A DNA stretch of 52,991 nucleotides from Patescibacteria group bacterium (GTDB taxonomy: Bacteria; Patescibacteriota; Minisyncoccia; Phycocordibacterales; UBA9973): positions 1 through 52,991 of the forward strand of contig JAHIVA010000021.1 in NCBI GenBank assembly GCA_018816985.1. The letters run 5' to 3'. Shown one piece after another: positions 6,008 through 49,098 of the stretch. Both the position numbers and the translations under genes were made by a program. Numbering within the stretch: the stretch's first letter is position 1; each line of letters starts with the position of its first letter. A model generated the notes under the pieces. The model was given only the letters and a program-made list of their open reading frames with translations. It was not told where the DNA came from and did no database searches.

Positions 6008-7058
6008 AAAAGCTAAATTAATATTAAAGGATGGAAGTACTTTTGAGGGCGTGTCTTTTGGTGCGGAGAAATCTGTTTCTGGAGAAGTGGTTTTTGCTAC
6101 CGGAATGGCAGGATATCCAGAGGCTTTTACTGACCCTTCTTTTTGTGGACAAATTTTAGTAATGACTTACCCGCTTATTGGAAACTATGGAGTGCCGAAA
6201 AAAGAATTTTGGGAATCAGACAAAATTCAAATTTCTGGTTTAATAGTTTGTAACTATGTAGATACTCCCTCCCATCACGCTATGGAAAAGACACTTAGCG
6301 CTTGGCTTAAAAGTCGGGGTATTCCTGCTTTGGAAATTAAGGATACCAGAATGCTTACTCAAAAATTACGGGATGAAGGAGTAACTTTAGGTAAAATTAT
6401 TGCCGGCAATAATACCGTAAAATTTGAAGATCCAAATCTCAGGAATTTAGTGGCGGAAGTAAGCACTAAAAAAGTTTTATTTTTTGGTCAAGGCAAAAAA
6501 ACCATTGTGATTATAGATTGTGGTGAAAAAAGAAACATAATACGCAGACTATTGGCTCGCGGATTGAAAGTAGCGGTAGTGCCTTTTGATACAGATGTAG
6601 CTGAATTAAATTTCAATTTTGACGGAGTTTTAATTTCTAATGGTCCCGGAGATCCCAAGATGGTAAAAACCACAATAAAAAATGTAAAAAAAATTATCAA
6701 AAAAGGAATCCCCACACTTGGTATTTGTTTAGGGAATCAGATTCTTACTTTAGCTTTGGGTGGGGATACTTATAAATTAAAATTTGGACATCGCAGTCAA
6801 AATCAACCTGTGGTGGAAAAGAATACTAGAAAGTGTTATCTCACAACCCAAAATCACGGTTTTGCTGTTAATAAAATTCCTAAAAATTTCACTGAGTGGT
6901 TTTATAACGCTAACGACAATACAAATGAAGGGGTGATTCATAAAAGTTTACCGATAATGTCTGTGCAATTTCATCCCGAAAGTTCGCCTGGGCCACTTGA
7001 TACGGATTGGATTTTTGATTATTTTTTAGAAAGAGCGGGAATAAATTATGAAAAATAA
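5988..7058 (+). CDS. carA: carbamoyl-phosphate synthase small (glutaminase) subunit
   Basis: 356 aa. Motifs: GICLGNQIL nucleophile, NHGFAV and QFHPES. Confidence 0.9.
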   Translation: MQNKTSKKAKLILKDGSTFEGVSFGAEKSVSGEVVFATGMAGYPEAFTDPSFCGQILVMTYPLIGNYGVPKKEFWESDKIQISGLIVCNYVDTPSHHAMEKTLSAWLKSRGIPALEIKDTRMLTQKLRDEGVTLGKIIAGNNTVKFEDPNLRNLVAEVSTKKVLFFGQGKKTIVIIDCGEKRNIIRRLLARGLKVAVVPFDTDVAELNFNFDGVLISNGPGDPKMVKTTIKNVKKIIKKGIPTLGICLGNQILTLALGGDTYKLKFGHRSQNQPVVEKNTRKCYLTTQNHGFAVNKIPKNFTEWFYNANDNTNEGVIHKSLPIMSVQFHPESSPGPLDTDWIFDYFLERAGINYEK

Positions 7059-10000: not shown

Positions 10001-10266
10001 ACAAAGCGCACGAGCAATCCCCAAATGTTTTGAATATTATAGAGGGCAAAAAAGTATCTTTTGTGGTAAATTTAAGCAAGATGAGAGATAGCTTAGGGAG
10101 AGAAAAAGAGCATATTGTTACTGATGGTTTCCGGGTACGAAGGGCTACGGTAGATAATCAGATTCCTTTATTTACCGATTTGCAATTAGCACGTGCTTTC
10201 ATTAAGGCCTTGGGGCGTTACCCTTTGGAAGATTTAGAAATTAAGTCGTATAAAGAATATTTATAA
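7048..10266 (+). CDS. carB: carbamoyl-phosphate synthase large subunit
   Basis: 1072 aa. It has duplicated ATP-grasp halves. Motifs: GSGALKIGEGGEFDYSG and GSGPYHIGSSVEFDW. Confidence 0.95.
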   Translation: MKNNKLKLIKKILVLGSGALKIGEGGEFDYSGTQAIKALKEEKIKVILVNPNIATFQTSKDLADEVYFLPIDTFFVEKVIKKERPDGIMLSFGGQTALNCGLHLEEKGILKKYNVQVLGSPVSSIELTEDREKFKEHLKSIDIPVPPSGSATTLAEARKIAHKIGFPLMIRAAFALGGQKSGVVNNENELEETIKGALAVSPQVLVEKYLHQFKEIEYEVVRDCYDNTVTVCNMENLDPLGIHTGDSIVIAPSQTLNNEEYQGLREASIKIVQSLKIVGECNVQFALNPSPVGKGVDYFVIEVNARLSRSSALASKATGYPLAYVAAKLALGYNLSEIENKITKVTQSFFEPALDYVVVKIPRWDLIKFTGAIEQIGSAMKSVGEVMAIGRSFEEALGKAIRMQSGNVEGITDNGFKNKKDLENLLNVPTPRRIFAIAESFKKGVKIEKIHKITGIDLWFLFRIENIVNSEKNFLKNKILSKENLLILKQIGFSDKKIGDLCGKTELEIRKLRIHFGVIPSVFTIDTLAGEVPAKTNYLYLTYYGNHNDVSPLGKNAIIVLGSGPYHIGSSVEFDWCSLHAALALKKHKKQSIIINCNPETVSTDYDMSDRLYFENLSFETVADIFEFETAGGLIVSVGGQRPNNLAKKLSEAKFTILGTKAEDIDRAEDRNAFSALLDKLGILQPKWQSFTSKKEAEKFTEIEGFPVLVRPSYVLSGSAMRVCYNKKQLHNFISKAAVLSPLHPVTVSKYIENAKELEFDGVAQQGRLMLYGISEHVENAGVHSGDATIVYPTQRVYASTEFQLRDISKKIARELSITGPFNIQFLVKDNRPFVIEVNVRASRTFPLLSKAMDVNFPEMSVDSFFGKAKHHNFVYPKGVIVKSPQFSFSRLLGADPVLRVEMSSTGEAACFGRDYDEALLKSVLSTNKFDFKNKNVLLSLGGEINKAKFLETAGLLLSLGYTIFATDTTAEFFKKHNINCKEVHKAHEQSPNVLNIIEGKKVSFVVNLSKMRDSLGREKEHIVTDGFRVRRATVDNQIPLFTDLQLARAFIKALGRYPLEDLEIKSYKEYL

Positions 10267-12300: not shown

Positions 12301-14313
12301 TTATATCATTAAAATAACCAAAAGCAAAGCCATAATGTTCAGAATTTTTATCATTGGATTGATGGCTGGACCAGCGGTATCTTTATAAGGGTCTCCGACA
12401 GTATCTCCGGTTACTGCAGCCTTGTGAGCCTCACTACCCTTACCTCCGTGATTGCCTTGCTCGATATGTTTCTTGGCATTATCCCAAGCACCCCCACCGG
12501 AGGTCATAGAAATAGCCACAAAAAGTCCGGTAACAATAGACCCAACGAGTAGTCCTCCCAAAACCACTAAACCGTTTTCTTTTCCAAAAATTAAAATTAC
12601 CAAAATTGGTGCTAATACTGGGATGAGAGCAGGTAGAATCATTTGTTTAATGGCAGCACCAGTAATAATTGAGACAGCTTTGGCGTAATTCGGTTTTCCT
12701 GTGCCTTCCATAATTCCTTTTATTTCTCTGAATTGTCGGCGGATTTCTTCCACCACCTTGCCAGCAGTTTTTCCTACAGCTTCCATACACAATGCTCCGA
12801 AATAATAGGGAAGGAGTCCTCCCAGAAAGAGACCTACAATTACGTATGGATTACTTAAATCAAAAGTTATCTCTTTTCCTACCTTAACAATTTCCTCGGT
12901 ATAAGAGGCAAAAAGCACGAGGGCTGCCAAGCCAGCAGAGCCGATAGCGTAACCTTTGGTTACAGCTTTAGTGGTATTGCCTACAGCATCTAGGGGGTCG
13001 GTAACATTTCGAACAGATTCTGGAAGTTCAGCCATTTCGGCGATACCTCCGGCATTGTCTGTTATTGGACCATAAGCATCAATAGCCACAATAATTCCTG
13101 CCATTGAAAGCATAGACATTGCTGCCACTGCTATTCCGTAAAGTCCCGCATAGTGATAACTGATTAATATTCCTAAAACAATAGTGATTAAAGGCAGGGC
13201 AGTAGCTTTCATTGAAATAGCTAAACCCTGGATAACATTTGTTCCGTGTCCGGAAACCGAAGCGAGGGCAATAGATTTAACAGGATAGTATTTTGTAGAA
13301 GTGAAATATTCTGTAATAACAACCAGAGCTCCGGTTACCAGAAGACCAACAATGGAGCAAATAAATAAATCCATCACTGTGTATTTTCCATTTCCTGACA
13401 TTAATAAATTTGTTACAGGATAAAAAGCAATTGCTGCAATGACCCCAGAAGCGATCAAGCCTTTATACAGAGCACCCATGATATTTTTATTTTTACCTAA
13501 ACGTACAAACCAGGTGCCGATGATAGATGCAAAGATAGCTATTCCGCCGATTACCAAAGGATAAATAATTGCATTTTGAAATCCCACAAAAAGTAGTGAA
13601 CCAAGGAGCATTGTGGCAACTGAGGTAACGGCATAAGTTTCAAATAAATCTGCCGCCATACCTGCACAGTCACCGACATTATCACCGACATTGTCCGCAA
13701 TCACTCCCGGATTTCTTGGGTCGTCTTCTGGAATTTCCGCTTCTAGCTTACCGACAAGGTCTGCTCCCACATCTGCTGCTTTAGTGAAAATTCCTCCACC
13801 CAATCTGGCAAAAACAGAGATAAGTGAAGCACCGAAACCAAGACCGATAAGGGCAGGAATATCTTTAGTAATTGCATAAAAAGCAGTTACCCCAAGAAGA
13901 GCCAAGCCTACTACCAAAAGTCCAGTTACTGTTCCTCCCCGAAAAGCAATAGAAAGCGCTTCTTCTATTCCGTTTCTAGCGGCTTCTGTTGTTCGGACAT
14001 TTGCCCGAACAGAGACATTCATACCAATATATCCTGCCAAAGCGGAGAAAATGGCTCCAACTAAAAATCCAAAAGCCATAGTCCAGCCAAGCTTAGGAAT
14101 AAAACCGACGATTAAAAAAAGTGCTATGGCAATTAAGCCAATAGTTTTATATTGTTTATTTAAATAAGCACCAGCACCTTCTTGGATTGCCTTGGCGATT
14201 TCTTGCATCCGTTCATTACCAGGACTCTTTTTCAAGATTGACTTAGCTAAAAATAAACCGTAAATAATAGCAATTACCGAACTAACAAGTGCAAATAATA
14301 AAAATTGATTCAT
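12301..14313 (-). CDS. hppA: membrane-bound ion-translocating pyrophosphatase
   Basis: 670 aa, polytopic. Motifs: [27 protein letters not shown] and [18 protein letters not shown]. Confidence 0.93.
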
Positions 14314-22226: not shown

Positions 22227-24947
22227 ATGAAAAAAATATTTTTTATATGTCTCGTTGTAGTAGCTAGCGCAATGTTGTATACCAACACTGTCTATGCTAC
22301 TACTGTGGGTTCTGGAAGTTGCACACCGCGAGACCACAACCTATCAAACTATGATCCATTTTATCCAAACGACTGGTGGTGCGACAGCTGGTCTTTTAGT
22401 GGAGCTGCTGCTGGTGGGCCAAGTTGTAGTATCGGTTATGTTGGAGGACAAACGTATTTTTACAAAACAGGTGGTCTGATTGGGTTTAGTTGTTATGCAA
22501 ATGATAACAATTGTGCCGCCAGTACGTGTATTGGATCATCTTGTTGGAATAGTTATCAATGGGTAAGCGGAACCAAAACCTGTAACGTAGATAATGGTTG
22601 TGCCGCGAATACTTGTTCAACTTCATCTTGTTGGAATAGTTATCAATGGGTAAGCGGAACCAAAACCTGTAATGTAGACAATGGTTGTGCCGCAAATACT
22701 TGTGTTGGGTCAACTTGTTGGAATAGCTATCAATGGAGGAGTGGCACCAAGACTTGCAACGTAGATAATGGTTGCGCCGCGAGTACTTGTAGTTACAATA
22801 CTTGTTATAATAGCTATCAATGGGTTCAAGGAACGAATATAAATGCCTGTCCAGTGCCAAGTCTTTCGTCTGCTTCTTGCCCGTCGCCTGGCACTACAGC
22901 ATCATTAAGTTGGTCTAATACTGGTGCGCCACGCTATTATTTAGTAACAAGGAATGTGACTGATGGTAGCGGGGACTCGCCACAGTGGGTGTATACGAAT
23001 TCAGGGTCCATCTCTACGACTCCTGGGAAGACTTATTGGTTTTGGGCGCATTCTTGTACTTCCGGTGGTACTTGCAATTGGAATTCATCCAGTCCTCAAT
23101 ATAAAAGTTTTACCTGTACTGCCCCAGCAGTCCCAACCATCACTTTCACCGCTTCTCCGTCCGTGGCATACAATGGTCGCGCAACCTTAACATGGAGTTC
23201 TCAAAATGCTACCAGCTGTGTTTCCACCGGCCCTTGGTCAGCCCTACCTATTAGTGGAGGTAGTGGTCTTACTGATCCTTTAACTTCTAACACAACCTTC
23301 ACTTTCCGTTGCACAGGTCCCGGAGGAACTACAGCAACAATATCAAGGACGGTGACGGTTGGCATAATTCCTGCCCCAAATTCATTATCAGCAACCTGTT
23401 CTGTTTCTTCTGCGTCTCTTAGTTGGCAGAACACTGGCGCATCCCTTTATTATTTAGTTACCAGAAATGTAACTGATGGTGGTGCCGATGTCGCAAAGTG
23501 GGTATATACAAATTATAGTTCTGTTCCGACGGTTCCAGGTAAGACGTACCAGTTTTGGGTTCATTCCTGTACTGCTCAAGACGTTTGCAACTGGGTAGAG
23601 CATTCTCCGGTGACAACACTTACGTGTCAAAACGCGCCGACCGGTCTTACCGCTTCCTGTCCGTTGCCTGGAAATAATGCGATACTTTCTTGGAACGCTT
23701 CTAATGGAGCCAGTTATTATGCTGTTCGTATTGACGACACGACGAAAGGCATAAATGACGATACCTGCAGCGGTGCCACTGGCGATTCTTGTCCTTGGCC
23801 GACCACTAATTCGTATTCTTTTATTCCGATTCCTGGTGATTCATATCGTTTTTGGGTTCACGCTTGTAGTGCTATTAATGTGTGTAATTGGGAAGATTCA
23901 AGTCCTCAAGAAGTAGTATTTACTTGCGTGGCACCGATGACCCAAGCTAGTTTGGAAATAGATTTAAACAATAATGGAAGCTATGACGTTACCTTGCCAA
24001 GTGTATCTGTAAAAGCTTTGGGTGCTGGTGGCGCGGAAACAGTTAATTGGACAGGAGCAAATGCATGGACCGCAGTTGCTGGAACTCACAAGTTCAGAAT
24101 TTGCGCTGATGCCTTAAATTCATCATCAGAGTCAAATGAAAGTAACAATTGCTCTACTGGTATTTTTACTGTGGAAGAATCTGAGATTGAGATGACTGGT
24201 TCACTCTCTATTCCGTCTTGTACTATTAGTAATGGAGGAAGTACTTGTACGACATTAGCGTCATGGTCTACAGAAAATCCAGAAGCAACATCTGCGATTA
24301 CCAAAGATGGGGTAAATGGAAATTATAAAACAGGGAATAATAAAACAGATGAACCGTTTACCCTTCCTTATGGTTCTTCAACCTTTAGGCTTTATAATCA
24401 TTCCAAATTACTTGATACTGTTGTTGTGACTGCGGGTTGTAGTACGTCACCAGTTTATACTGTTTGGAATACAGACAATGAAAGATGTGAAACTATTCTT
24501 GCTACTCTTTCTGCTTCACTTGAAGCTAGTCCTTCAAGTGGGGTAGTGCCTTTGTCTAGCACTCTCACGGCTACGCGTACTGGCGGTACTGCTTCGGGAG
24601 CTATCAGTTATAGATTTAAATGTAAAACTAGTAATTCTTGGAGTTCTTCTCAGTCCTCTAATTCTTATTCTTGTAATTATCCATTAGCCAATACCTACAC
24701 AGCTTCTGCTGAAGTTACACAACAAGGAGTGACAGCAATTCCTACCACAACAATTACGGTTAATCCTCCTGCAGTTGATGGATCCTGTCTTTCTCCGGCT
24801 ATTCATTATAATTGTCCTGCCGGCAGTACAAGCCTTGAGGAATTAAGTAGTCCAAGCCGTTGGACATGGAGATGTACAGGCTTAAATGGAGGAGATCCTA
24901 GCCCTCAATGTTTTGAGAGAAAAAGTCCTGGATTTATAGAGAATTAA
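22227..24947 (+). CDS. giant Cys-rich secreted/surface protein
   Basis: 906 aa with a signal peptide. It contains four 29-aa Cys repeats, three copies of the shared Cys-framed domain, Ig-like modules and a C-terminal GSC...H..C...W.C.G.NGG...C module. Confidence 0.8.
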   Translation: MKKIFFICLVVVASAMLYTNTVYATTVGSGSCTPRDHNLSNYDPFYPNDWWCDSWSFSGAAAGGPSCSIGYVGGQTYFYKTGGLIGFSCYANDNNCAASTCIGSSCWNSYQWVSGTKTCNVDNGCAANTCSTSSCWNSYQWVSGTKTCNVDNGCAANTCVGSTCWNSYQWRSGTKTCNVDNGCAASTCSYNTCYNSYQWVQGTNINACPVPSLSSASCPSPGTTASLSWSNTGAPRYYLVTRNVTDGSGDSPQWVYTNSGSISTTPGKTYWFWAHSCTSGGTCNWNSSSPQYKSFTCTAPAVPTITFTASPSVAYNGRATLTWSSQNATSCVSTGPWSALPISGGSGLTDPLTSNTTFTFRCTGPGGTTATISRTVTVGIIPAPNSLSATCSVSSASLSWQNTGASLYYLVTRNVTDGGADVAKWVYTNYSSVPTVPGKTYQFWVHSCTAQDVCNWVEHSPVTTLTCQNAPTGLTASCPLPGNNAILSWNASNGASYYAVRIDDTTKGINDDTCSGATGDSCPWPTTNSYSFIPIPGDSYRFWVHACSAINVCNWEDSSPQEVVFTCVAPMTQASLEIDLNNNGSYDVTLPSVSVKALGAGGAETVNWTGANAWTAVAGTHKFRICADALNSSSESNESNNCSTGIFTVEESEIEMTGSLSIPSCTISNGGSTCTTLASWSTENPEATSAITKDGVNGNYKTGNNKTDEPFTLPYGSSTFRLYNHSKLLDTVVVTAGCSTSPVYTVWNTDNERCETILATLSASLEASPSSGVVPLSSTLTATRTGGTASGAISYRFKCKTSNSWSSSQSSNSYSCNYPLANTYTASAEVTQQGVTAIPTTTITVNPPAVDGSCLSPAIHYNCPAGSTSLEELSSPSRWTWRCTGLNGGDPSPQCFERKSPGFIEN
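22503..22850 (+). repeat. 4 tandem 87-bp coding repeats (29 aa: DNGCAANTC-x-TSSCWNSYQWVSGTKTCNV)
   Basis: Units start at 22503, 22590, 22677 and 22764. Units 1 to 3 are nearly identical at the DNA level. Confidence 0.9.
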
Positions 24948-28018: not shown

Positions 28019-29452
28019 TTAATTTTTAACTTCTTGCCACGAAAGTATATTATATTGATTTCCAGTCAAGGGGAAGTCGGGTGGTGGAGCATAGAGTAAA
28101 TTTGCGTCGTAGGTTATATTTCGTATAGCATAACCAGTATCATCCGTATAAGCAAAACCATATCTTGCATAGGAAGCAATCATTCCATAAAGAGAAATAA
28201 CTTCTCGGTTTTTATAAGCACAACCTCCTCCGCTATAATAAAATCTTCCTACTCTGTCATTTTGAGCTATAAGTGCCGCATCTATCTTTAGATTATCTTC
28301 ACTTTTCATTCCAACCATTACCCCGGCTTGTCCAATAAGTCCTATAGAATCAGATCCATCATAAGAAGTATAAAGAAGGTCATTATTTACTATTATATTT
28401 TTAAAATTAGTTGGGTTTGATGGTACCGGTAAGTCAGCCGCAGCAATAGTGAGCCGGGCTCCATTTATCTGTCCATCAACTACAATATTGTCTTCTAGAA
28501 AAATTATTCCATTAGTTGGAAAATTAAAATTGCCCTGTAGGGTTTGAGTGCCAACACTGAAGCTGTATGTCGAGCCGGAACAATTTCCTAAACTAGCCCA
28601 ACTATTTATTTTATAAAGATCAAAAGTGTTGTTTGTTTTTAAGACAATATGATATCCAACGTATTTGCTTCCTGCTTTGTTTTGATAAAACCCTTCTGAT
28701 ATTGCATTGGCTTGTAGCATGGCCAAGTCGGTTGTAAATCCAGAGAAATCAATGGTCGGCTGACTAATCAATCGTCCGGCTTCAAAAACATCTGAACGAG
28801 ATGGGAGTGTGGCGGGATATGTTGGATCAGCCGGAGATAAGCAAGTATGTACGCCATAAGAATTGCTGGTGGTGCAAGCATCGCTGTCCGTATCGGTGTA
28901 AGTTGTGGTTCCGCTAGTAACAATATTATGGGCTAGGCCATCAAAACGAATTCCGCCATTAATATGAACTGGTCCGAAAATTTCTGTTCCGGTGCCGAAG
29001 CGCATAGCATTATTTCCTGCCACCGAATATTTCGCGATAGATGGTTTAACTACCTCTGTTTCTATTTTTCTTAGATATGACGGATCAAGCACAGAAGAGC
29101 CAGTCGAGTTTATTTTTACTAAAGTTGAGCCGGGAGCCGGGGGAGTTATATTTAAAGAAAACTGTCCCACTGTATTATTATTTTTATCTTTTAAAAAATG
29201 AATATATGGGCCTGAAGTTCCTGTTCCGTCTTGGTAGTCAGTGGGGGCGTGGGCTAAATGCCAGCGGTAATAATCTATTCCGGCTTCCGATGACTGAAAG
29301 GCTTGCTCTCGATTAAAAGCTATTCGTCCTGTTTTAACTGTTGTCGCTGCCCATCCCGCCAGGGCTCCAATAATCATAATAGATACTGTGGCAAATATCA
29401 TTGTTTGCACTATAATCATACCTCCATCTTTTTTCATTTTTTTATTTATCAT
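28019..29452 (-). CDS. large PilX-like minor pilin / pilus-associated protein
   Basis: 477 aa. The N-terminal segment GGMIIVQTMIFATVSIMIIGALAGWA is hydrophobic and lacks Glu5. It has a 4-nt overlap with the upstream pseudopilin gene. Confidence 0.55.
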   Translation of the reverse strand: MINKKMKKDGGMIIVQTMIFATVSIMIIGALAGWAATTVKTGRIAFNREQAFQSSEAGIDYYRWHLAHAPTDYQDGTGTSGPYIHFLKDKNNNTVGQFSLNITPPAPGSTLVKINSTGSSVLDPSYLRKIETEVVKPSIAKYSVAGNNAMRFGTGTEIFGPVHINGGIRFDGLAHNIVTSGTTTYTDTDSDACTTSNSYGVHTCLSPADPTYPATLPSRSDVFEAGRLISQPTIDFSGFTTDLAMLQANAISEGFYQNKAGSKYVGYHIVLKTNNTFDLYKINSWASLGNCSGSTYSFSVGTQTLQGNFNFPTNGIIFLEDNIVVDGQINGARLTIAAADLPVPSNPTNFKNIIVNNDLLYTSYDGSDSIGLIGQAGVMVGMKSEDNLKIDAALIAQNDRVGRFYYSGGGCAYKNREVISLYGMIASYARYGFAYTDDTGYAIRNITYDANLLYAPPPDFPLTGNQYNILSWQEVKN

Positions 29453-42737: not shown

Positions 42738-44480
42738 ATGCAACAAGAAATAAAAAATTTAATAAAAGATGTTCTGAAAAATCTGGATATAGAAGTTAGC
42801 AATATTGCGTTGGAACATCCTGAAGATTTAATAAATGGAGATTATTCTACCAATGTGGCCTTAGCTATTGCTAAAAGTATTGAGAGGAATCCAAAAGAAT
42901 TAGCCGAAAAAATAGTTGTTGAAATCAACAGATTAAACGTAGATAAAAATATTGAAAAAGTTGAAATTGCCGGCAATGGCTTTATAAATTTCTATTTGTC
43001 TAGAAAATTTTTTACTAAAAGTACCGAAGAAATTTTAAATAAAGTAGAAAATTTTGGGAAAAACGATCTTTTTAAATCTAAAAAAATAATGGTTGAGTAT
43101 ACGGATCCGAATCCCTTTAAACCTTTTCATATTGGACATTTAATGACAAATGCCATTGGAGAATCAGTTGCGAGAATTTTGGAACACTCTGGAGCTATTG
43201 TTTCTAGAGCAAATTATCAGGGGGATGTTGGGCTTCATGTGGCAAAAGCTATTTACGGGCTTTTAGATAATGAAAAACTGCAAAGCAAGAAAGGGTCACA
43301 TAACTTACAGGCGGAAAATATAGGGAAAGCTTATGCGCGCGGAGCTGAACTTTATGAGATTGACGAAAAAGTAAAAAAAGAGATTGAAGAAATAAACAAA
43401 AAAATCTACGAAAGAAACGACGAGAAGATAAATAAAATATATGAATGGGGCTTTAAGGTAACGATGGACGCTTTTGAAGATTTATATAAAATACTCGGTA
43501 CTAAATTTGATTTTTATTTTCTGGAAAGCAAGATGTCTAATATCGGAAAGGGAATCGTTAAAGATAATATGGACAAAGTTATAGATCCTGAGGGGAGTCG
43601 AATGATTTTTGAAGAGTCCGATGGGGCTATCGTCTTTAAAGCTGAGAAATATGATCCAAAACTTCATACTAGAGTTTTTATCACTTCGGCTGGTTTGCCC
43701 ACTTATGAGGCAAAAGATTTGGCATTAACGGAAGAAAAATTCAAAACTGACCCCAATTTAGACTTGTCTATCATGGTTACTGCCAATGAGCAAGTGGACT
43801 ATATGAGGGTTGTGGTGAAGGCTATTTCGCTATTACATCCGGGTATTGAAAATAAGATGAAACACATTACTCACGGTATGATGCGTTTTGCTTCTGGTAA
43901 AATGGGTTCCCGAAAAGGGAATATAATTACTGGAGAGGCTTTTTTAAGAGATGTTCGAGATAGTGTTTTAGAAAGGATGACTGACAGAAGTTTTCCCCCG
44001 GATGAAGAAGAGAGAATTGCTTCCAATGTTGGCGTGGCAGCGATAAAATATTCTATTTTAAAGCAAGGAATCGGCGGAAACATTATTTATGATTTTGAAA
44101 AATCAATTTCTTTTGAAGGGGATTCCGGACCATATCTTCAATATTCTTACGCTCGGGCGAATTCTGTTTTAGAAAAAGCGCAAAAAGAAAATATTCTGCC
44201 AGATTTTGAATTTACGCCTTCCGAAATTTTGGAAGTAGAAAAATTGTTGTATAGATTTCCAGAAGTTGTTTTCCGTTCCGCTGACGAACACGAACCGCAC
44301 TATATTGCAAACTACTTGATAGAAGTGGCCCGTTCTTTTAATAGCTTTTATGGCAATACGGTTATCGTCAACAAAGAAGACAAAACTTCTTCCTACAAAG
44401 TCGCCCTGACTTATGCCTTTTCTTTTGTCATGAAAACTGGCTTGCATCTCCTCGGTATCGAAGCGCCAAAAAAGATGTAA
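42738..44480 (+). CDS. argS: arginine--tRNA ligase
   Basis: 580 aa. It has an Arg_tRNA_synt_N-like start, the PNPFKPFHIGHL HIGH motif and a DALR-type C-terminus. Confidence 0.9.
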   Translation: MQQEIKNLIKDVLKNLDIEVSNIALEHPEDLINGDYSTNVALAIAKSIERNPKELAEKIVVEINRLNVDKNIEKVEIAGNGFINFYLSRKFFTKSTEEILNKVENFGKNDLFKSKKIMVEYTDPNPFKPFHIGHLMTNAIGESVARILEHSGAIVSRANYQGDVGLHVAKAIYGLLDNEKLQSKKGSHNLQAENIGKAYARGAELYEIDEKVKKEIEEINKKIYERNDEKINKIYEWGFKVTMDAFEDLYKILGTKFDFYFLESKMSNIGKGIVKDNMDKVIDPEGSRMIFEESDGAIVFKAEKYDPKLHTRVFITSAGLPTYEAKDLALTEEKFKTDPNLDLSIMVTANEQVDYMRVVVKAISLLHPGIENKMKHITHGMMRFASGKMGSRKGNIITGEAFLRDVRDSVLERMTDRSFPPDEEERIASNVGVAAIKYSILKQGIGGNIIYDFEKSISFEGDSGPYLQYSYARANSVLEKAQKENILPDFEFTPSEILEVEKLLYRFPEVVFRSADEHEPHYIANYLIEVARSFNSFYGNTVIVNKEDKTSSYKVALTYAFSFVMKTGLHLLGIEAPKKM

Positions 44481-44512: not shown

Positions 44513-47500
44513 ATGTCCGAAGAAACAAAAAATACAAAAAGTGAGACGGCTTTGCGGGAAGAGAAAATTTTGGAGTTCTGGAAAGAAAATAAAATTTTTT
44601 CGAAGACTCTGAGTGCGACGAAGGGGAAAAAAGAATTCATATTTTATGAAGGTCCGCCGACTGCCAATGGTCAGCCAGGAATTCATCATCTGGAAGCACG
44701 AGCGTTTAAAGATGCCATTCCCAGATATAAAACAATGCAAGGCTTCCACGTTCGCCGAAAAGGAGGTTGGGATACCCATGGGTTGCCAGTGGAGCTTCAG
44801 GTGGAAAAAAAGCTTGGATTAAATTCTAAAAAAGCGATAGAAGAGTACGGCATTGCGAAGTTTAATCAAGAATGTAAGGAATCTGTTTGGGAATATCTGG
44901 ATGTGTGGAATAAATTTACTAAACGTATCGGTTATTGGGTGGACCAGGAAAACCCATATGTCACTTATTACAATAATTATATTGAATCTGTTTGGAATAT
45001 TATTAAAAAAATAAATCAACAAAATTTGCTTTATAAAGATTATAAAGTTGTGCCTTGGTGTCCGAGATGTGGAACAGCCCTATCTTCCCACGAGCTCGCT
45101 CAGGGCTATGAAGATGTGAAAGATTTGTCGGTTTATGTGAAATTTAAAGTTATTAGTCCTTCGCAGGGCTCAGGACAAGCAAATATGAATACATATTTGC
45201 TTGCTTGGACAACGACGCCGTGGACTTTGCCGGGAAATGTGGCTTTGGCGGTGGGTGAAAATATTGATTATGTAAAAATAAAAGTTGCAAATAATACAAG
45301 TAAAATTTATATTCTTGCCAAAGAGAGACTTTCAATTCTAACTGAATTGTATGAGGTTATAGAAGAAATAAAAGGCAAAGATTTAATTGGCTTAGAATAT
45401 GAACCATTGTATTCGTTTCTTGCAGATACTATTTCTGAAAATGAAAAACTAAAATTAGAAAAAGCTTTTAAGGTTTACGGAGCGGATTTTGTCACTATTG
45501 AAGATGGCACAGGCGTAGTACATACTGCGGTGATGTACGGACAGGATGATTTTGAACTTGGTACGAAGATTGGTTTACCCAAGCATCACTTGGTGGGCTT
45601 AGATGGAAAATTCTTACTGGGTACTGGAATATTTGCTGGTCGCTTTGTTCGGGACGAGGAAGTGGCGGTAGATATTATTAAAGATTTAGCTCATCGCGGG
45701 CTTCTTCTAAAAAAAGAAAAATTTGAACACTCTTATCCACATTGCTGGAGATGTAAAACAGCGCTTATTTATTATGCTCGTGATTCTTGGTATATCAAAG
45801 TTTCTGATTCAAAAATAAAGGCTCAGATGATTGCCGAAAATAAAGAAATAAATTGGGAACCGGCGCATACTCGGGATGGGCGTTTTGGGGAATGGTTGAG
45901 GGAAATCAAAGACTGGGCGGTTTCCAGAGAGCGATATTGGGGCACGCCCTTACCGGTTTGGGTTTGCGAAACTTGTCAAAAGATTGAAGTGCTGGGAAGC
46001 GTAGAAGAAATAAAAGAAAAAATAAAAAAGTCTGGGAATAAATATTTTGTGATGCGGCACGGAGAAGCGAAAAACAACACTGCTGTCGGTATTCATTATT
46101 ATAAAAATACAGAACATAGTGCTCCTCTGACAGAAAAAGGAAAAGAGCAAGTTTTAGAAAGTTCGAAAAATTTCAAGGAAAAGATTGATTTGATTATTTG
46201 CTCACCATTTGAGAGAGCTAAGGAAACTGCTGAAATAGTTTGTGGACAGATTAATTTTCCGCCAGAGAAAATTATTTATGACAAACGAATTAAAGAATGG
46301 GAAGTTAGTTCTTTTTTTGAAGGGAAAGATAGAGCGGTTTTTAAAAAATATTACGATGCAGGTTATTTAGACAATCCGAAAGAAGTTTTACCGGACGGAG
46401 AAAGTTTTGCTGAAGTAGTTAAACGAGTCGGTGGTTTTATTTGTGATGTAGAAGAAAAATATTTCGATAAAAATATTCTTATTGTCGGGCACAGTGGATC
46501 AATGCGAGCTTTAGATTTTATAGTGAAAGAATTGTCTTTTGATGACCTGTCAACTAGGAATAATCCCTTAACTCTTCTTCAAAATGCTGAGATAAGAAAA
46601 CTTAATTTTGTTCCTCTTCCACATAACACAGATTGCGAACTTGATTTACATAGGCCGTATATTGATGAAATTAATCTAGTTTGTACCCATTCGGCAAGCT
46701 CAGGGCAAGCTTGTGGGGGTAAATTAGTGCGTACTAAAGAAGTGATGGATGTCTGGCTTGATTCTGGTTGTATGCCTTTCGCACAAAACCATTATCCTTT
46801 TGAAAACAAAAAATGGGTGGACGGGACGGGTTATCCGGCTGATTTTATTTCTGAAGCAATTGATCAGACTCGGGGATGGTTTTATACCCTGCATGCTATT
46901 GGTGTATTGATGGGGAGAGGAAAAGCTTATAAAAATGTTATTTGTCTCGGACATTTATTGGATGCAAAAGGAAAAAAGATGTCTAAATCTCTCGGCAATA
47001 TTGTTGACCCATGGGAAGCAATGGATAAATATGGCGTGGATATATTACGTCTTTGGATGTACTCGGTTAATCAACCAGGTGAGTCTAAAAATTTTGATGA
47101 AAAAACAGTGGCCCTGTTGCATCAGCAAGTTTTTGGTTTGCTTTATAATGTGCTTGCTTTTTACGAACTTTATCGGGATAAAAATTTAGAAAAAAACAAT
47201 CACTCAAGATCAAAAAATATTTTAGATATTTGGATTTTAGCTAGACTGGATGAATTAATAGTCCTGACAACTAAGCATCTCGATGATTATAAATTACTCG
47301 AGCCGACTAGGGCCATTCGGGATTTTATTGGAGACCTTTCTACTTGGTACTTGCGTCGCTCTCGAGAAAGAATAAAAGAGGGAGACACAGAAGCAAAAGT
47401 AACTTTGTATTTTGTAATAAAAACATTAACTAAGGTCATGGCTCCATTCGCCCCCTTGGCTTCAGAAGATATTTGGCTTAAACTGAAAACCAAAGACGAT

Positions 47501-48535
47501 AAAGAAAGCGTACATTTGACTGAATGGCCACGGAAATCTTTTAGAATTTTTTCTTTTGGAGAAAATAAATTTTTACGGGATATGGAAGTAGCAAGAAATA
47601 TAGTCACTCTTGGTCTTGAAGCTCGGCAAAGGGCTGGGATCAAAGTTCGTCAACCATTAAATAAGCTGGAGATTATCTCTAGAAAATTATCCGAAGAATA
47701 TCTAAATATTATAAAAAAAGAGTTAAATATTAAAAATATTGATTATGTTTTAAAAATAAAAATAGGTATTCAAAAAGTAAATTTGGACACAACCATTACT
47801 CCTGAATTAAAAGCGGAAGGAGATTATCGTGAATTTATGCGAGAGCTACAAGATGAAAGAAAAAAAATGGGGCTTGCCCCGGGTGATCAAATGCCACTTA
47901 GTATTGAGAAGATATATAAAAAGTATAAAATCATGCCAAGTTTGCAGGAACATATGCTCCGAACAGCAGCTGTGGCGTTTTTAATTTGTGATAATTTTGA
48001 TGAACCTTTGCCGAAAGAAGAAATTGTTACCGCTTGTTTGCTTCATGATATGGGGAATATTATTAAGTTTAAATTAGATTACTTTCCGGAGTTGAATGAA
48101 CCAGAAGGAATAGAATATTGGCAGAATGTGCAAAAAGAATATATTAGAAAATACGGTAAGAAAGAATCTGTTGCTCATACTAAAATTGCCCAAGAAATTG
48201 GTGCGAATGAGAGAATGTTGGAATTAATTAATGCGATTAGTTTTTTAGGTGCTCCCGTTAACCTCTTAGACACAGATTTTAGCAAAAAGGTTGTTGAATA
48301 TTGCGATGAACGTGTGGGTATTTTGGGTATAGTAAACATAGAACAAAGGCTTATGGATTTAAGAAAACGTTATGCGCATCACGAAGGCCACACTCCTGAA
48401 CGCGATGTATTTGAAAATGCTGTAAGACAAATTGAAAAACAAATTTTTGCCAAATGTAAAATAAAACCGGAAGACATAAATGAGGCAACCGTAGCCCCTG
48501 TAATTTCAGAGTTAAGAAATTTCGTGATACGCTAA
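44513..48535 (+). CDS. ileS: isoleucine--tRNA ligase with an internal histidine-phosphatase domain and a C-terminal HD-domain fusion
   Basis: 1340 aa in one uninterrupted frame. IleRS motifs: PPTANGQPGIHHLEAR, WTTTPWTLPGN and KMSKSLGN. The insertion at 46031..46640 contains MRHGEA, SPFERAKETA and VGHSGSMRAL. The tail at 47933..48532 contains EHMLRTAAVAF, LLHDMGN and CDERVG. Confidence 0.88.
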   Translation: MSEETKNTKSETALREEKILEFWKENKIFSKTLSATKGKKEFIFYEGPPTANGQPGIHHLEARAFKDAIPRYKTMQGFHVRRKGGWDTHGLPVELQVEKKLGLNSKKAIEEYGIAKFNQECKESVWEYLDVWNKFTKRIGYWVDQENPYVTYYNNYIESVWNIIKKINQQNLLYKDYKVVPWCPRCGTALSSHELAQGYEDVKDLSVYVKFKVISPSQGSGQANMNTYLLAWTTTPWTLPGNVALAVGENIDYVKIKVANNTSKIYILAKERLSILTELYEVIEEIKGKDLIGLEYEPLYSFLADTISENEKLKLEKAFKVYGADFVTIEDGTGVVHTAVMYGQDDFELGTKIGLPKHHLVGLDGKFLLGTGIFAGRFVRDEEVAVDIIKDLAHRGLLLKKEKFEHSYPHCWRCKTALIYYARDSWYIKVSDSKIKAQMIAENKEINWEPAHTRDGRFGEWLREIKDWAVSRERYWGTPLPVWVCETCQKIEVLGSVEEIKEKIKKSGNKYFVMRHGEAKNNTAVGIHYYKNTEHSAPLTEKGKEQVLESSKNFKEKIDLIICSPFERAKETAEIVCGQINFPPEKIIYDKRIKEWEVSSFFEGKDRAVFKKYYDAGYLDNPKEVLPDGESFAEVVKRVGGFICDVEEKYFDKNILIVGHSGSMRALDFIVKELSFDDLSTRNNPLTLLQNAEIRKLNFVPLPHNTDCELDLHRPYIDEINLVCTHSASSGQACGGKLVRTKEVMDVWLDSGCMPFAQNHYPFENKKWVDGTGYPADFISEAIDQTRGWFYTLHAIGVLMGRGKAYKNVICLGHLLDAKGKKMSKSLGNIVDPWEAMDKYGVDILRLWMYSVNQPGESKNFDEKTVALLHQQVFGLLYNVLAFYELYRDKNLEKNNHSRSKNILDIWILARLDELIVLTTKHLDDYKLLEPTRAIRDFIGDLSTWYLRRSRERIKEGDTEAKVTLYFVIKTLTKVMAPFAPLASEDIWLKLKTKDDKESVHLTEWPRKSFRIFSFGENKFLRDMEVARNIVTLGLEARQRAGIKVRQPLNKLEIISRKLSEEYLNIIKKELNIKNIDYVLKIKIGIQKVNLDTTITPELKAEGDYREFMRELQDERKKMGLAPGDQMPLSIEKIYKKYKIMPSLQEHMLRTAAVAFLICDNFDEPLPKEEIVTACLLHDMGNIIKFKLDYFPELNEPEGIEYWQNVQKEYIRKYGKKESVAHTKIAQEIGANERMLELINAISFLGAPVNLLDTDFSKKVVEYCDERVGILGIVNIEQRLMDLRKRYAHHEGHTPERDVFENAVRQIEKQIFAKCKIKPEDINEATVAPVISELRNFVIR

Positions 48536-48569: not shown

Positions 48570-48603
48570 ATAACACACTTTCGTGATCGCGATGGCATGT
48601 TAT
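48570..48603. repeat. 34-nt quasi-palindrome ATAACAC-N-GATCGCGAT-N-ATGTTAT (upstream copy, overlaps the promoter)
   Basis: ATAACACACTTTCGTGATCGCGATGGCATGTTAT. It matches the downstream copy at 26/34 positions directly and 27/34 inverted, by my alignment. Confidence 0.8.
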
Positions 48604-48606
48604 AAT
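48598..48606 (+). promoter_or_regulatory. extended -10 TGTTATAAT, 6 nt before the ATG at 48613 (leaderless arrangement), embedded in the palindrome
   Basis: TGTTATAAT agattt ATG. Confidence 0.45.
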
Positions 48607-48612
48607 AGATTT

Positions 48613-49098
48613 ATGGAGAACACAGCCCTTGATCACTTAATAGCGTTTTTGCTTTCTGCCCGTTCAACAAGAATATACAGAAAAATATTGTGGGTTAGAA
48701 TGCAGGCTAGGCAAAAATCCATGAACGCCGGATCTTTTAATCAACACATTTATCGTTTGCATAAAAAGGGAATTATTGAGTCTAGAGACGGCAAAATTCA
48801 TATCCATAGAGAAAATCTTTTAAAATTTTCGGCGAAAAATAATTCAATGAAAAATTCAGTGATGAAAAGCATTTTTCCAACTAAAACCGAAAAAATCTTG
48901 ATATCTTTCGACATACCGGAGAAAAAGAAAAAAACCAGGGATTGGCTTAGAAATCAAATAAAATATTGGGATTTTGAAATGATTCACAAAAGCTTATGGC
49001 TTGGGTATGGTCCTTTACCTAAAGAATTTAATGATAGGTTAAAACAACTTGGTATTGAAAAAAATGTCAGAATATTTAAAATTAAAAAAGTGACATAA
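48613..49098 (+). CDS. PaaX-like regulator: winged-helix N-terminus plus a Cas2-like/PaaX C-terminal-type ferredoxin-fold segment
   Basis: I start it at MENTALDHLIAFLL, because the listed GTG at 48583 lies inside the operator-like palindrome. ILISFDIPEKKKKTRDWLRNQIKYWDFEMIHKSLWLGYGPLP fits the PaaX/Cas2 beta-alpha-beta pattern. Confidence 0.55.
   Translation: MENTALDHLIAFLLSARSTRIYRKILWVRMQARQKSMNAGSFNQHIYRLHKKGIIESRDGKIHIHRENLLKFSAKNNSMKNSVMKSIFPTKTEKILISFDIPEKKKKTRDWLRNQIKYWDFEMIHKSLWLGYGPLPKEFNDRLKQLGIEKNVRIFKIKKVT

What the first reader, a model, noticed from the sequence alone, without database searches (positions are those of the whole stretch)
46031..46640. Complete histidine-phosphatase (PGAM-type) domain nested inside the IleRS catalytic core
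The 1340-aa ORF at 44513..48535 is a recognisable type-2-like IleRS (PPTANGQPGIHHLEAR, WTTTPWTLPGN, KMSKSLGN). About 200 codons lie between [29 protein letters not shown] and DLHRPYIDEINLVC. IleRS sequences I know have only a short connector at that point.

The inserted codons carry every hallmark of histidine-phosphatase superfamily branch 1:
- FVMRHGEA (the RHG motif)
- PLTEKGKEQ
- CSPFERAKETAEIV
- ILIVGHSGSMRAL

The frame is continuous, so the product would be a single polypeptide. I do not know of a phosphatase nested in an aminoacyl-tRNA synthetase Rossmann fold. Possible substrates, such as phosphorylated nucleotides, Ap4A-type side products or tRNA 2'/3'-phosphate ends, are pure speculation.
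Basis: partly seen in the sequence, partly recalled or inferred. Interest (0 to 1): 0.72.

Follow-up and report, generated by a model that had tools for sequence, protein, structure and literature searches.

The report
Phosphatase domain nested inside IleRS
The isoleucyl-tRNA synthetase of this ultra-small (CPR/Patescibacteria) bacterium has a complete, apparently active histidine phosphatase built into a zinc-knuckle loop of its catalytic core; the design recurs in over a hundred species but has not been described, and its substrate is unknown.

Summary
ORF 44513-48535 is a full type-2 IleRS (TIGR00392, 868 bits). About 202 residues (aa 502-703, nt 46016-46621) replace a 4-residue connector of solved IleRS2. 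They form a His_Phos_1 domain (88 bits, cut-off 21.7; AF2 pLDDT 92.9).

It is not an artefact. At least 118 species-level Patescibacteria genomes carry the same junction, 110 of them in one uninterrupted alignment. The catalytic residues R515, H516, R568 and H660 are invariant in 121 homologues; N522 and E595 are nearly so.

New context:
- Sister lineages (Nealsonbacteria and other Parcubacteria) encode the phosphatase as a separate gene directly upstream of an insert-less ileS, in the same argS-ileS-recO synteny. The nested and operonic forms were never seen together.
- Other CPR IleRS carry two copies, some in other catalytic-domain loops.
- Gracilibacteria/Peregrinibacteria ValRS carry 1-3 copies (a fragment has 4), mostly in the homologous loop.

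I read it as an accessory phosphomonoesterase dedicated to the synthetase. The substrate is unknown. My leading guess, at about 25%, is a phosphorylated tRNA 3' end. I found no paper describing this architecture. A conserved HD-type domain also sits at the C-terminus.

The parts
42738..44480 (+). argS (ArgRS, 580 aa), 32 nt upstream of ileS. It is the conserved upstream neighbour in the argS-(phosphatase)-ileS-recO synteny.
   Evidence: Pfam tRNA-synt_1d, DALR_1 and Arg_tRNA_synt_N. Same gene order in L214, L217, L219 and L221.
44513..48535 (+). ileS: type-2 IleRS of 1340 aa carrying the nested phosphatase and a C-terminal HD-type domain.
   Evidence: TIGR00392 868 bits. Best solved relatives are IleRS2 8c8w and 1ile.
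44678..44689 (+). Class I signature motif in the non-canonical form G56-I-H-H59 (G/AXHH).
   Evidence: The motif class is described in PMC10485003.
45965..45976 (+). Proximal half of the zinc knuckle, C485-E-T-C488, just before the insert.
   Evidence: By the alignment offset these correspond to Cys461/464 of T. thermophilus IleRS. All four Cys are kept in 111 of 121 homologues.
46016..46621 (+). The nested histidine phosphatase module (aa 502-703) with its conserved linkers KKSGNKY and F-x-PLP.
   Evidence: Insert boundaries from the alignment to 8c8w and to insert-less CPR IleRS. Pfam His_Phos_1 covers aa 512-679. AF2 pLDDT 92.9. Foldseek matches PspA, PhoE, Rv2419c and CobC.
46055..46063 (+). 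R515-H516-G517: the RHG motif with the predicted phospho-accepting histidine.
   Evidence: Invariant in 121 of 121. R and H are kept in every complete inserted copy of the multi-copy variants; G is Ala in two copies.
46214..46216 (+). R568, second arginine of the phosphate pocket (SPxxR motif).
   Evidence: Invariant in 121 of 121.
46295..46297 (+). E595, predicted general acid/base.
   Evidence: Kept in 120 of 121.
46490..46492 (+). H660, second histidine of the phosphate pocket.
   Evidence: Invariant in 121 of 121.
46682..46714 (+). Distal half of the zinc knuckle, C724 and C734, here with 8 extra residues between the two Cys.
46976..46990 (+). KMSKS loop (aa 822-826), intact.
   Evidence: Kept in 121 of 121.
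47918..48532 (+). C-terminal HD-type domain (aa 1136-1340) with H1147, H1178-D1179 and D1265. It is a second accessory hydrolase-like module, present in about a third of close homologues.
   Evidence: Pfam HD 26.7 bits against a gathering score of 22. H..HD..D is invariant in 39 sequences. AF2 pLDDT 93.5. Foldseek matches to HD proteins are weak, best 2ogi at E 1e-2.

Best explanation
The insert is an autonomous, catalytically competent branch-1 histidine phosphatase. It sits in the loop of the second zinc knuckle of the housekeeping type-2 IleRS of a Paceibacteria-type CPR bacterium.

Chemistry, inferred from the family: His516 attacks a phosphomonoester and forms a phospho-histidine intermediate. 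Arg515, Arg568 and His660 hold the phosphate, and Glu595 acts as the acid/base.

Biology, inferred from comparative genomics: it is an accessory hydrolase dedicated to the synthetase. It is the cis version of a phosphatase that sister lineages encode as a separate gene immediately upstream of ileS. Nesting it in a catalytic-domain loop keeps it beside whatever IleRS binds.

Substrate, a guess: most likely a phosphorylated 2'/3' position on the terminal A76 ribose of tRNA(Ile), which would otherwise block aminoacylation. The synthetase would then clear its own tRNA before charging it.

My probabilities:
- The domain is real and catalytically intact: about 0.9.
- It works with or for the synthetase: about 0.6-0.65.
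- The substrate is the tRNA 3' end: about 0.25.
For: Shown:
- Strong His_Phos_1 match and a confident fold.
- R515, H516, G517, R568 and H660 are invariant in 121 homologues, N522 in 119 and E595 in 120. The rest of the insert is only about 50% identical to the query, against 73-79% for the IleRS core. This points to selection on catalysis.
- HIGH-type motif, KMSKS, the editing motif and the anticodon domain are intact, and the gene sits in housekeeping argS-ileS-recO synteny.
- At least 118 species-level genomes share the junction.

Coupling to the synthetase:
- Four of the six free-standing relatives I looked up lie directly between argS and an insert-less ileS.
- In a GTDB scan, 24 of 38 CPR loci have ileS starting within about 90 nt downstream. 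All 25 downstream ileS genes that could be evaluated have only 5-16 residues at the insert site.
- None of the non-CPR relatives is next to ileS.
- Other IleRS carry two intact copies, some in different loops: after WxDSG and after KMSKS.
- ValRS of Gracilibacteria/Peregrinibacteria carry 1-3 copies, mostly in the homologous WG...WFSS loop.
- Among the 150 closest representative clusters, IleRS and ValRS are the only identified multidomain hosts, and no terminal fusion was seen in full-length proteins.

Precedent for the substrate guess: toxSAS enzymes pyrophosphorylate the tRNA 3' CCA end and block aminoacylation, and HD-type hydrolases reverse this (10.1101/2021.04.30.441581). This IleRS also carries an HD-type domain.
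Against: - No biochemical data exist, and I could not obtain the 3-D position of the phosphatase pocket relative to the synthetic and editing sites.
- The domain scores below the curated cut-offs of every characterised subfamily (CobC, PspA, dPGM, SixA, GpmB), so homology gives no substrate.
- Its closest structural relatives are small-molecule phosphatases.
- The nested domain is mildly acidic (pI about 6.3), which gives no sign of RNA binding of its own.
- Known toxSAS targets are not tRNA(Ile) or tRNA(Val) specifically (PMC11559606, abstract).
- A histidine phosphatase is a monoesterase and is not an obvious pyrophosphate remover.
- Gene adjacency and fusion show association, not mechanism.
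Confidence: 0.55

Rival explanations
1. Hitch-hiking metabolic phosphatase. The domain is an ordinary small-molecule phosphatase (for example of the phosphoserine, sugar-phosphate or nucleotide type). It has no mechanistic link to aminoacylation. Genome-reduced CPR bacteria embedded it in, or placed it next to, an essential and constitutively expressed gene to secure its expression.
For: The nearest structures and models are small-molecule phosphatases: PspA, PhoE, Rv2419c, HFP and CobC. The domain folds autonomously. CPR class Ia synthetases appear permissive to foreign domains in general, with Y1_Tnp, GNAT, DUF559 and HU hits. Two of the six free-standing relatives I looked up are not next to ileS.
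Against: Simple co-expression would favour terminal fusions or loose operons. Instead the domain is repeatedly nested in catalytic-domain loops of only IleRS and ValRS, in 1-4 copies and at several sites. The nested and operonic forms are mutually exclusive. Relatives outside CPR are never next to ileS.
Confidence: 0.25
2. Self-protecting synthetase. The phosphatase acts on the synthetase itself, or on a partner protein. It would remove inhibitory phosphorylation placed on or near the KMSKS loop by kinase toxins, or act as a phospho-switch that regulates IleRS.
For: Some branch-1 members are protein phosphatases (SixA, PGAM5, Sts-1; own knowledge). HipA-type kinases inactivate class I synthetases by phosphorylating the KMSKS-region loop (GltX, TrpS; own knowledge). 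The alternative insertion sites flank KMSKS, after WxDSG and after KMSKS. KMSKS has two serines and is invariant.
Against: There is no evidence that these IleRS are phosphorylated. The SixA model scores below its cut-off (37 against 74.5 bits). The main site (site A) is not adjacent to KMSKS in sequence.
Confidence: 0.12
3. Non-catalytic structural module. The domain serves as a dimerisation or scaffolding element (many histidine phosphatases are dimers). Its chemistry would be irrelevant.
For: Tandem copies could form intramolecular pseudo-dimers. The linkers are more conserved than much of the domain interior.
Against: All catalytic residues are invariant or nearly so across 121 homologues and in every complete copy of the multi-copy variants. 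A purely structural role does not predict that.
Confidence: 0.05
4. Artefact. The architecture comes from a chimeric assembly, a frameshifted pseudogene, or a mis-joined contig.
For: None found.
Against: The ORF is uninterrupted. The same junctions occur in 118 of 120 species-level loci from many independent studies, 110 of them as a single HSP across both junctions. All of the 120 best database hits carry PF00300.
Confidence: 0.01

Closest known systems
Type-2 bacterial IleRS with the non-canonical G/AXHH signature motif (P. megaterium and T. thermophilus IleRS2 structures 8c8u/8c8w and 1ile; PMC10485003)
   Same: Same enzyme family and domain order: Rossmann fold, CP1 editing domain, zinc knuckles, KMSKS and the anticodon-binding domain. 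The GIHH motif belongs to the described G/AXHH class.
   Different: The solved enzymes have a 4-residue connector (8c8w) where this protein has a 202-residue phosphatase. This protein also replaces the distal C-terminal domain with an HD-type domain.
Small free-standing branch-1 histidine phosphatases (PspA 4ij5, PhoE/YhfR 1h2e, Rv2419c 4pz9, CobC 6nru, HFP 9mmh)
   Same: Same fold (TM about 0.7), same catalytic residues, and a similar size of about 195 aa.
   Different: Sequence identity is only 18-25%. The domain scores below every curated subfamily cut-off. It is nested in, or operonic with, a tRNA synthetase, and its substrate is unknown.
CP1 editing domain and the LeuRS leucine-specific domain: modules nested in the class Ia Rossmann fold
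   Same: There is precedent for a hydrolytic domain (CP1) and a KMSKS-positioning module (LSD, PMC3643597, abstract) inserted in catalytic-domain loops and acting on what the synthetase binds.
   Different: Those modules are specific to synthetases and ancient. Here a generic phosphatase fold has been recruited, in variable copy number and at variable sites, in a restricted set of CPR lineages.
Free-standing versus fused trans-editing factors (AlaX, YbaK/ProX type; own knowledge)
   Same: The same evolutionary pattern, in which an accessory hydrolase exists either as a separate protein or as a domain of the synthetase it serves.
   Different: Those are aminoacyl-ester hydrolases with known substrates. 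This one is a phosphomonoesterase with no known role in aminoacylation.
Bifunctional RNase H / acid phosphatase (Rv2228c type, NCBIfam NF005567) and IleRS with a GNAT domain (NF040702)
   Same: Both are examples of a CobC-like histidine phosphatase fused to a nucleic-acid enzyme, and of an IleRS carrying an extra enzymatic domain. Both models give partial hits.
   Different: Scores are far below the cut-offs (58 against 326 bits; 346 against 1999 bits). Those are end-to-end fusions, not nested insertions.
HD-domain hydrolases that restore tRNA 3' ends (SAH enzymes reversing toxSAS pyrophosphorylation, 10.1101/2021.04.30.441581; HD domain of the E. coli CCA-adding enzyme, own knowledge)
   Same: They provide a conceptual precedent: a phosphate on the tRNA 3' end blocks charging and is removed by a dedicated hydrolase. 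This IleRS carries an HD-type domain as well.
   Different: No homology between the His_Phos insert and those enzymes has been shown. The HD tail matches known HD structures only weakly. Activity is untested.

Membership tests
Histidine phosphatase superfamily, branch 1 (Pfam PF00300) | Profile match above the curated gathering score | tested here: met
   88 bits against 21.7, E 8.5e-25, aa 512-679.
Histidine phosphatase superfamily, branch 1 (Pfam PF00300) | RHG motif with the nucleophilic His, plus the second Arg and second His of the phosphate pocket and the acidic proton donor | tested here: met
   R515-H516-G517, R568 and H660 are invariant in 121 of 121. E595 is kept in 120 of 121 and N522 in 119 of 121.
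Histidine phosphatase superfamily, branch 1 (Pfam PF00300) | Alpha/beta PGM-like fold | tested here: met
   AF2 pLDDT 92.9 and pTM 0.90. Foldseek gives 293 PDB matches with E<=1e-3, the best being PspA, Rv2419c and PhoE at TM 0.68-0.74.
Histidine phosphatase superfamily, branch 1 (Pfam PF00300) | Phosphatase or mutase activity through a phospho-histidine intermediate | not testable with these tools
   Needs the recombinant enzyme.
Characterised subfamilies: CobC alpha-ribazole phosphatase, PspA, dPGM, GpmB, SixA | Score above the NCBIfam equivalog cut-off | tested here: not met
   For the insert alone: CobC 71 against 162.9; PspA 55.8 against 350; archaeal dPGM 57.5 against 225; pgm_1 33.9 against 81.7; SixA 37.4 against 74.5; GpmB 34.8 against 261.
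Isoleucine--tRNA ligase (TIGR00392) | Equivalog model above cut-off | tested here: met
   868.3 bits against 621.4, matched in two stretches around the insert.
Isoleucine--tRNA ligase (TIGR00392) | Class I signature motifs (HIGH-type and KMSKS), CP1 editing motifs, anticodon-binding domain | tested here: met
   GIHH (G/AXHH variant), KMSKS in 121 of 121, WTTTPWTLPGN and GTGVVHTA...DD present, Anticodon_1 94.7 bits.
Isoleucine--tRNA ligase (TIGR00392) | Only (housekeeping) IleRS of the genome | tested here: inconclusive
   It occupies the same argS-ileS-recO position as the insert-less ileS of relatives. A whole genome could not be searched for a second copy.
IleRS2 with non-canonical G/AXHH motif (PMC10485003) | Gly/Ala at position 1 and His at position 3 of the signature motif, in a type-2 backbone | tested here: met
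   G56-I-H-H59. The best solved relatives are IleRS2. Mupirocin resistance itself is not testable here.
Mupirocin-resistance IleRS MupA/MupB (NF000257/NF000258) | Score above the curated cut-off | tested here: not met
   767 and 752 bits against 1900.
IleRS with GNAT domain (NF040702) | Score above cut-off, or presence of a GNAT domain | tested here: not met
   346 bits against 1999, and no GNAT hit in the window protein. A relative, P0209, does carry GNAT.
HD-domain metal-dependent phosphohydrolases (PF01966), for the C-terminal tail | Profile above gathering score and the H..HD..D metal ligands | tested here: met
   26.7 bits against 22. H1147, H1178-D1179 and D1265 are invariant in 39 sequences. 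The fold match to solved HD proteins is only weak (TM 0.44).

The most novel reading that the evidence does not exclude
Class Ia synthetases of CPR bacteria (IleRS, ValRS) carry a built-in, or operon-encoded, phosphatase that checks and repairs the chemical state of the tRNA acceptor end. It would remove a 2'/3'-phosphate or pyrophosphate from A76 before charging. That would be a new kind of synthetase-linked quality control or anti-toxin defence, possibly assisted by the C-terminal HD domain.
Probability: 0.22. Interest if true: 0.92.

Novelty: new variant of a known kind. Interest (0 to 1): 0.74.

Why it matters
Aminoacyl-tRNA synthetases are among the best-studied enzymes. Their known nested modules are editing or tRNA-positioning domains. 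A generic phosphomonoesterase recruited repeatedly into the catalytic domains of IleRS and ValRS would point to a step in tRNA charging that is not in the textbooks. The recruitment is varied: different loops, 1-4 copies, and a complementary operonic form. Candidate steps are repair of phosphorylated tRNA ends, protection from kinase or pyrophosphokinase toxins, or nucleotide housekeeping at the active site.

It also concerns a huge, mostly uncultured branch of bacteria whose biology is poorly understood. The hypothesis can be tested directly with recombinant protein. Even if the phosphatase proves unrelated to charging, the family is a clear natural example of stable domain insertion in a zinc-knuckle loop of an essential enzyme. 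It would also be a caution for annotation, because these records are named only 'class I tRNA ligase family protein'.

Tried and rejected
1. Charge as a sign of RNA binding. The nested domains are mildly acidic (pI about 6.3). Many free-standing operonic ones are very basic (pI up to 10.3). However, the IleRS of the same genomes is equally basic, so this reflects proteome composition and not function. Rejected as evidence.
2. Tree of the phosphatase domains. The NJ tree is star-like. It shows only that the ileS-adjacent free-standing forms group near the site-A inserts, and that the site B/C and ValRS copies lie apart. It gives no direction of transfer.
3. Tree of the IleRS core. Operonic and nested forms are interleaved, which suggests more than one switch. 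It is NJ without support values, so the number and direction of events are unresolved.
4. Taxonomy through cluster members gave almost no names. Organism names came from the GTDB genome scans instead. Many 'uncultured Saccharibacteria' labels on TPA bins are unverified.
5. A 20-sequence profile of free-standing phosphatases was too diverse to scan with. A 6-sequence profile worked.
6. A word-indexed homologue search with P0186 found only 8 proteins and no names.
7. HD tail. Sequence search of the PDB and Foldseek gave only weak HD matches, so no substrate inference is possible.
8. Pyrophosphatase idea. The window already encodes a membrane H+-PPase, so a PPi-removal role is not needed. Given low weight.
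9. Subfamily assignment (CobC, PspA, dPGM, SixA). All score below cut-off.
10. Literature. No paper links IleRS or aaRS with a histidine phosphatase or phosphoglycerate mutase domain. The 2026 preprint on IleRS C-terminal remodelling mentions neither a phosphatase nor CPR.
11. Full-length structure geometry could not be obtained.
12. No tRNA genes and no Rfam hits in the window.
Full report
**1.

- Pfam finds tRNA-synt_1 split in two, His_Phos_1 at aa 512-679 (88 bits against a gathering score of 21.7), Anticodon_1, part of DUF5915, and an HD domain.
- NCBIfam calls it IleRS (TIGR00392, 868 bits against 621).
- The best solved relatives are type-2 IleRS of P. megaterium and T. thermophilus. 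In 8c8w, residue 475 aligns with query 501 and residue 480 with query 704. So aa 502-703 (nt 46016-46621) replace a 4-residue connector.
- By the offset of the 1ile alignment (query 16-506 to chain 14-482), C485/C488 correspond to residues 461/464 of T. thermophilus IleRS. From memory, these are ligands of the second zinc together with Cys502/504. The partners here are C724 and C734.
- The phosphatase therefore sits in the loop of a four-Cys zinc knuckle, which holds the two ends of the insert together. All four Cys are kept in 111 of 121 homologues and are lost together in about 9.

**2. The insert is a complete and apparently working enzyme**

- Modelled alone with a 61-sequence alignment, it gives pLDDT 92.9 and pTM 0.90.
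- Foldseek matches small branch-1 histidine phosphatases (PspA, Rv2419c, PhoE, HFP, CobC) at TM about 0.7 and 18-25% identity.
- In an alignment of the query with 120 homologues, R515, H516, G517, R568 and H660 are invariant. N522 is kept in 119 and E595 in 120.
- The insert as a whole is only about 50% identical to the query, against 73-79% for the IleRS core. That pattern indicates selection on catalysis rather than mere tolerance of a passenger.
- The domain falls below the curated cut-offs of CobC, PspA, dPGM, GpmB and SixA. Homology therefore gives the chemistry but not the substrate.

**3. It is not an artefact and it is not rare**

- All of the 120 best hits in the 5.8-billion-protein collection carry PF00300. 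They come from Patescibacteria MAGs: Paceibacterota, Parcubacteria, Nomurabacteria and Minisyncoccia.
Labels included Zambryskibacteria, Yonathbacteria, Adlerbacteria and Vogelbacteria.
- Of those 120 loci, 118 encode the IleRS-plus-insert segment. In 110 a single uninterrupted tblastn alignment spans both junctions.
- The records are named only 'class I tRNA ligase family protein' or 'isoleucyl-tRNA synthetase'.
- Four literature searches found no paper describing the architecture.

**4. The key new evidence: an operonic twin**

- An exhaustive HMMER search with the insert found 434 representative clusters at E<1e-10. Besides IleRS, the top 150 listed include free-standing proteins of about 190-200 aa.
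- I looked up six of them. Four (P0164, P0171, P0186, P0168) lie directly between argS and an ileS of 931-955 aa that lacks the insert (truncated by the contig end for P0168), followed where the contig extends by recO. This is the same synteny as in the window, where argS ends 32 nt before ileS.
- A profile of these proteins was scanned over the GTDB genomes. It returned 38 CPR loci (Nealsonbacteria, Parcubacteria, Paceibacterota):
  - 24 have ileS starting within about 90 nt downstream;
  - 2 more have it within about 800 nt;
  - 5 are truncated;
  - 7 are not adjacent.
- All 25 downstream ileS genes that could be evaluated have only 5-16 residues at the insert site.
- None of the more distant non-CPR hits is next to ileS.
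- The nested and operonic forms were never seen together in one locus. That is the classical signature of two arrangements of one functional unit.
- A rough NJ tree of the IleRS core interleaves the two states, so more than one switch may have happened. The direction is unresolved.

**5. The theme is wider than this protein**

- Some IleRS carry two intact phosphatase domains in other places:
  - after WxDSG and after KMSKS (P0185, P0241);
  - site A plus after KMSKS (P0187);
  - site A plus after WxDSG (P0165);
  - tandem in site A (P0238, P0268).
- The closest genomic relatives of P0185 are Peribacteria and Gracilibacteria.
- P0126 has a ValRS-like N-terminus followed by four copies.
- A search with P0126 found 69 of 119 further ValRS homologues, from Gracilibacteria and Peregrinibacteria, carrying 1-3 copies. 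Most lie between WGhxIP and DTWFSS, the loop homologous to site A. Some lie before the SRQ/WG motif.
- Every complete copy keeps the catalytic set; isolated substitutions are G517 to Ala in two copies, N522 to Ala in one and R638 to Gln in one.
- Among the 150 closest representative clusters, IleRS and ValRS are the only identified multidomain hosts. I saw no simple terminal fusion in full-length proteins.
- In Nomurabacteria and Peribacteria, the ValRS listed (P0386, P0400) lack the domain, while their IleRS relatives have it.

**6. How it most likely works**

- Shown: an intact phosphatase active site, an intact synthetase, and a tight and recurrent genomic association with IleRS and ValRS.
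- Inferred from the family: His516 forms a phospho-enzyme intermediate on a phosphomonoester.
- Inferred from the comparative pattern: the phosphatase serves the synthetase. The supporting points are nesting in catalytic-domain loops rather than at the termini, several independent sites, variable copy number, and the operonic alternative. I put this at about 0.6-0.65.
- The substrate is a guess. I favour a phosphate on the terminal ribose of tRNA(Ile), at about 0.25.
  - Such a modification is known to block charging. toxSAS enzymes pyrophosphorylate the CCA end, and HD-type hydrolases reverse it (10.1101/2021.04.30.441581).
  - This IleRS also carries a conserved HD-type domain.
- Alternatives within the coupled reading are removal of inhibitory phosphorylation from the KMSKS region (HipA-GltX precedent, own knowledge) and hydrolysis of a nucleotide monoester at the active site.
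- The main rival (about 0.25) is an unrelated metabolic phosphatase that hitch-hikes on an essential gene. The closest structural relatives are small-molecule enzymes, and CPR class Ia synthetases seem to tolerate foreign domains in general (Y1_Tnp, GNAT, DUF559 and HU hits).
- I could not measure where the phosphatase pocket points in the full-length protein. That is the most informative missing computation.

**7. Comparison with what is known**

- The core is a member of IleRS (equivalog met) and of the G/AXHH class of IleRS2 (PMC10485003).
- The insert is a member of Pfam His_Phos_1, with all defining features met except activity, which is untestable here. It is not a member of any characterised subfamily.
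- The arrangement works like the CP1 editing domain or the LeuRS leucine-specific domain, in that it is a module nested in the Rossmann fold. Its cis/trans duality resembles AlaX/YbaK-type editing factors. The recruited fold and chemistry, however, are new for a synthetase.
- I rate it a new variant of a known kind. It is undescribed in the literature I could search, although the sequences themselves are public.

**8. Verdict**

It is a family of CPR IleRS and ValRS with nested or operonic histidine phosphatases.
- Interest: 0.74.
- Most novel reading not excluded: synthetase-integrated repair of phosphorylated tRNA ends, probability about 0.22, interest if true about 0.9.

Noticed in passing
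window 47918-48532 (aa 1136-1340 of ileS): A C-terminal HD-type domain replaces the distal part of the IleRS2 C-terminal domain. DUF5915 is matched only at profile positions 101-154 of 195. H1147, H1178-D1179 and D1265 are invariant in 39 tail-bearing homologues. AF2 gives pLDDT 93.5, but Foldseek matches to solved HD proteins are weak (best 2ogi, E 1e-2). The tail is present in about a third of close homologues.
   Followed up: partly
window 44678-44689 (aa 56-59): The class I signature motif is GIHH. This is the non-canonical G/AXHH form of IleRS2 that PMC10485003 links to mupirocin hyper-resistance. In 17 of 121 close homologues the region reads PVLHTM(V/L)PF, giving VLHT, so the fourth-position His is also lost.
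   Followed up: partly
window 46682-46714 (aa 724-734): The distal half of the zinc knuckle has 8 extra residues (THSASSGQA) between the two cysteines. Most homologues have CxC there.
   Followed up: no
related protein P0209 (JGI, 1066 aa): This IleRS has an IS200-like Y1 transposase domain hit inside the editing region (aa 340-461), a His_Phos domain at site A, and a C-terminal GNAT domain. Some ValRS homologues also show DUF559 (PF04480) or HU (PF00216) hits. CPR class Ia synthetases look like hot spots for in-frame domain insertion.
   Followed up: no
related proteins P0126, P0284, P0315 (ValRS of Gracilibacteria/Peregrinibacteria): These ValRS carry two to four histidine phosphatase domains, mostly in tandem, and in the full-length members reach about 1480-1630 aa.
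   Followed up: partly
window 12301-14313 (-) and 7048-10266 (+): The window encodes a membrane H+-translocating pyrophosphatase and a carbamoyl-phosphate synthase large subunit. Both are relevant to phosphate and nucleotide metabolism in this small-genome organism.
   Followed up: no
window 22227-24947 (+) and 28019-29452 (-): Two large ORFs (906 aa and 476 aa) have no Pfam match at E<=1e-5.
   Followed up: no
window 48583-49098 (+): Immediately downstream of ileS is a 171-aa ORF with a PaaX central Cas2-like domain hit, followed by a small HAD-like ORF and recO. The insert-less relatives have other small ORFs, or none, in this position.
   Followed up: no
locus L213 (context of free-standing phosphatase P0170): One free-standing relative sits not by ileS but in a defence-like neighbourhood, with NERD, MazG-like, an SLFN-type helicase and DUF3800.
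   Followed up: no
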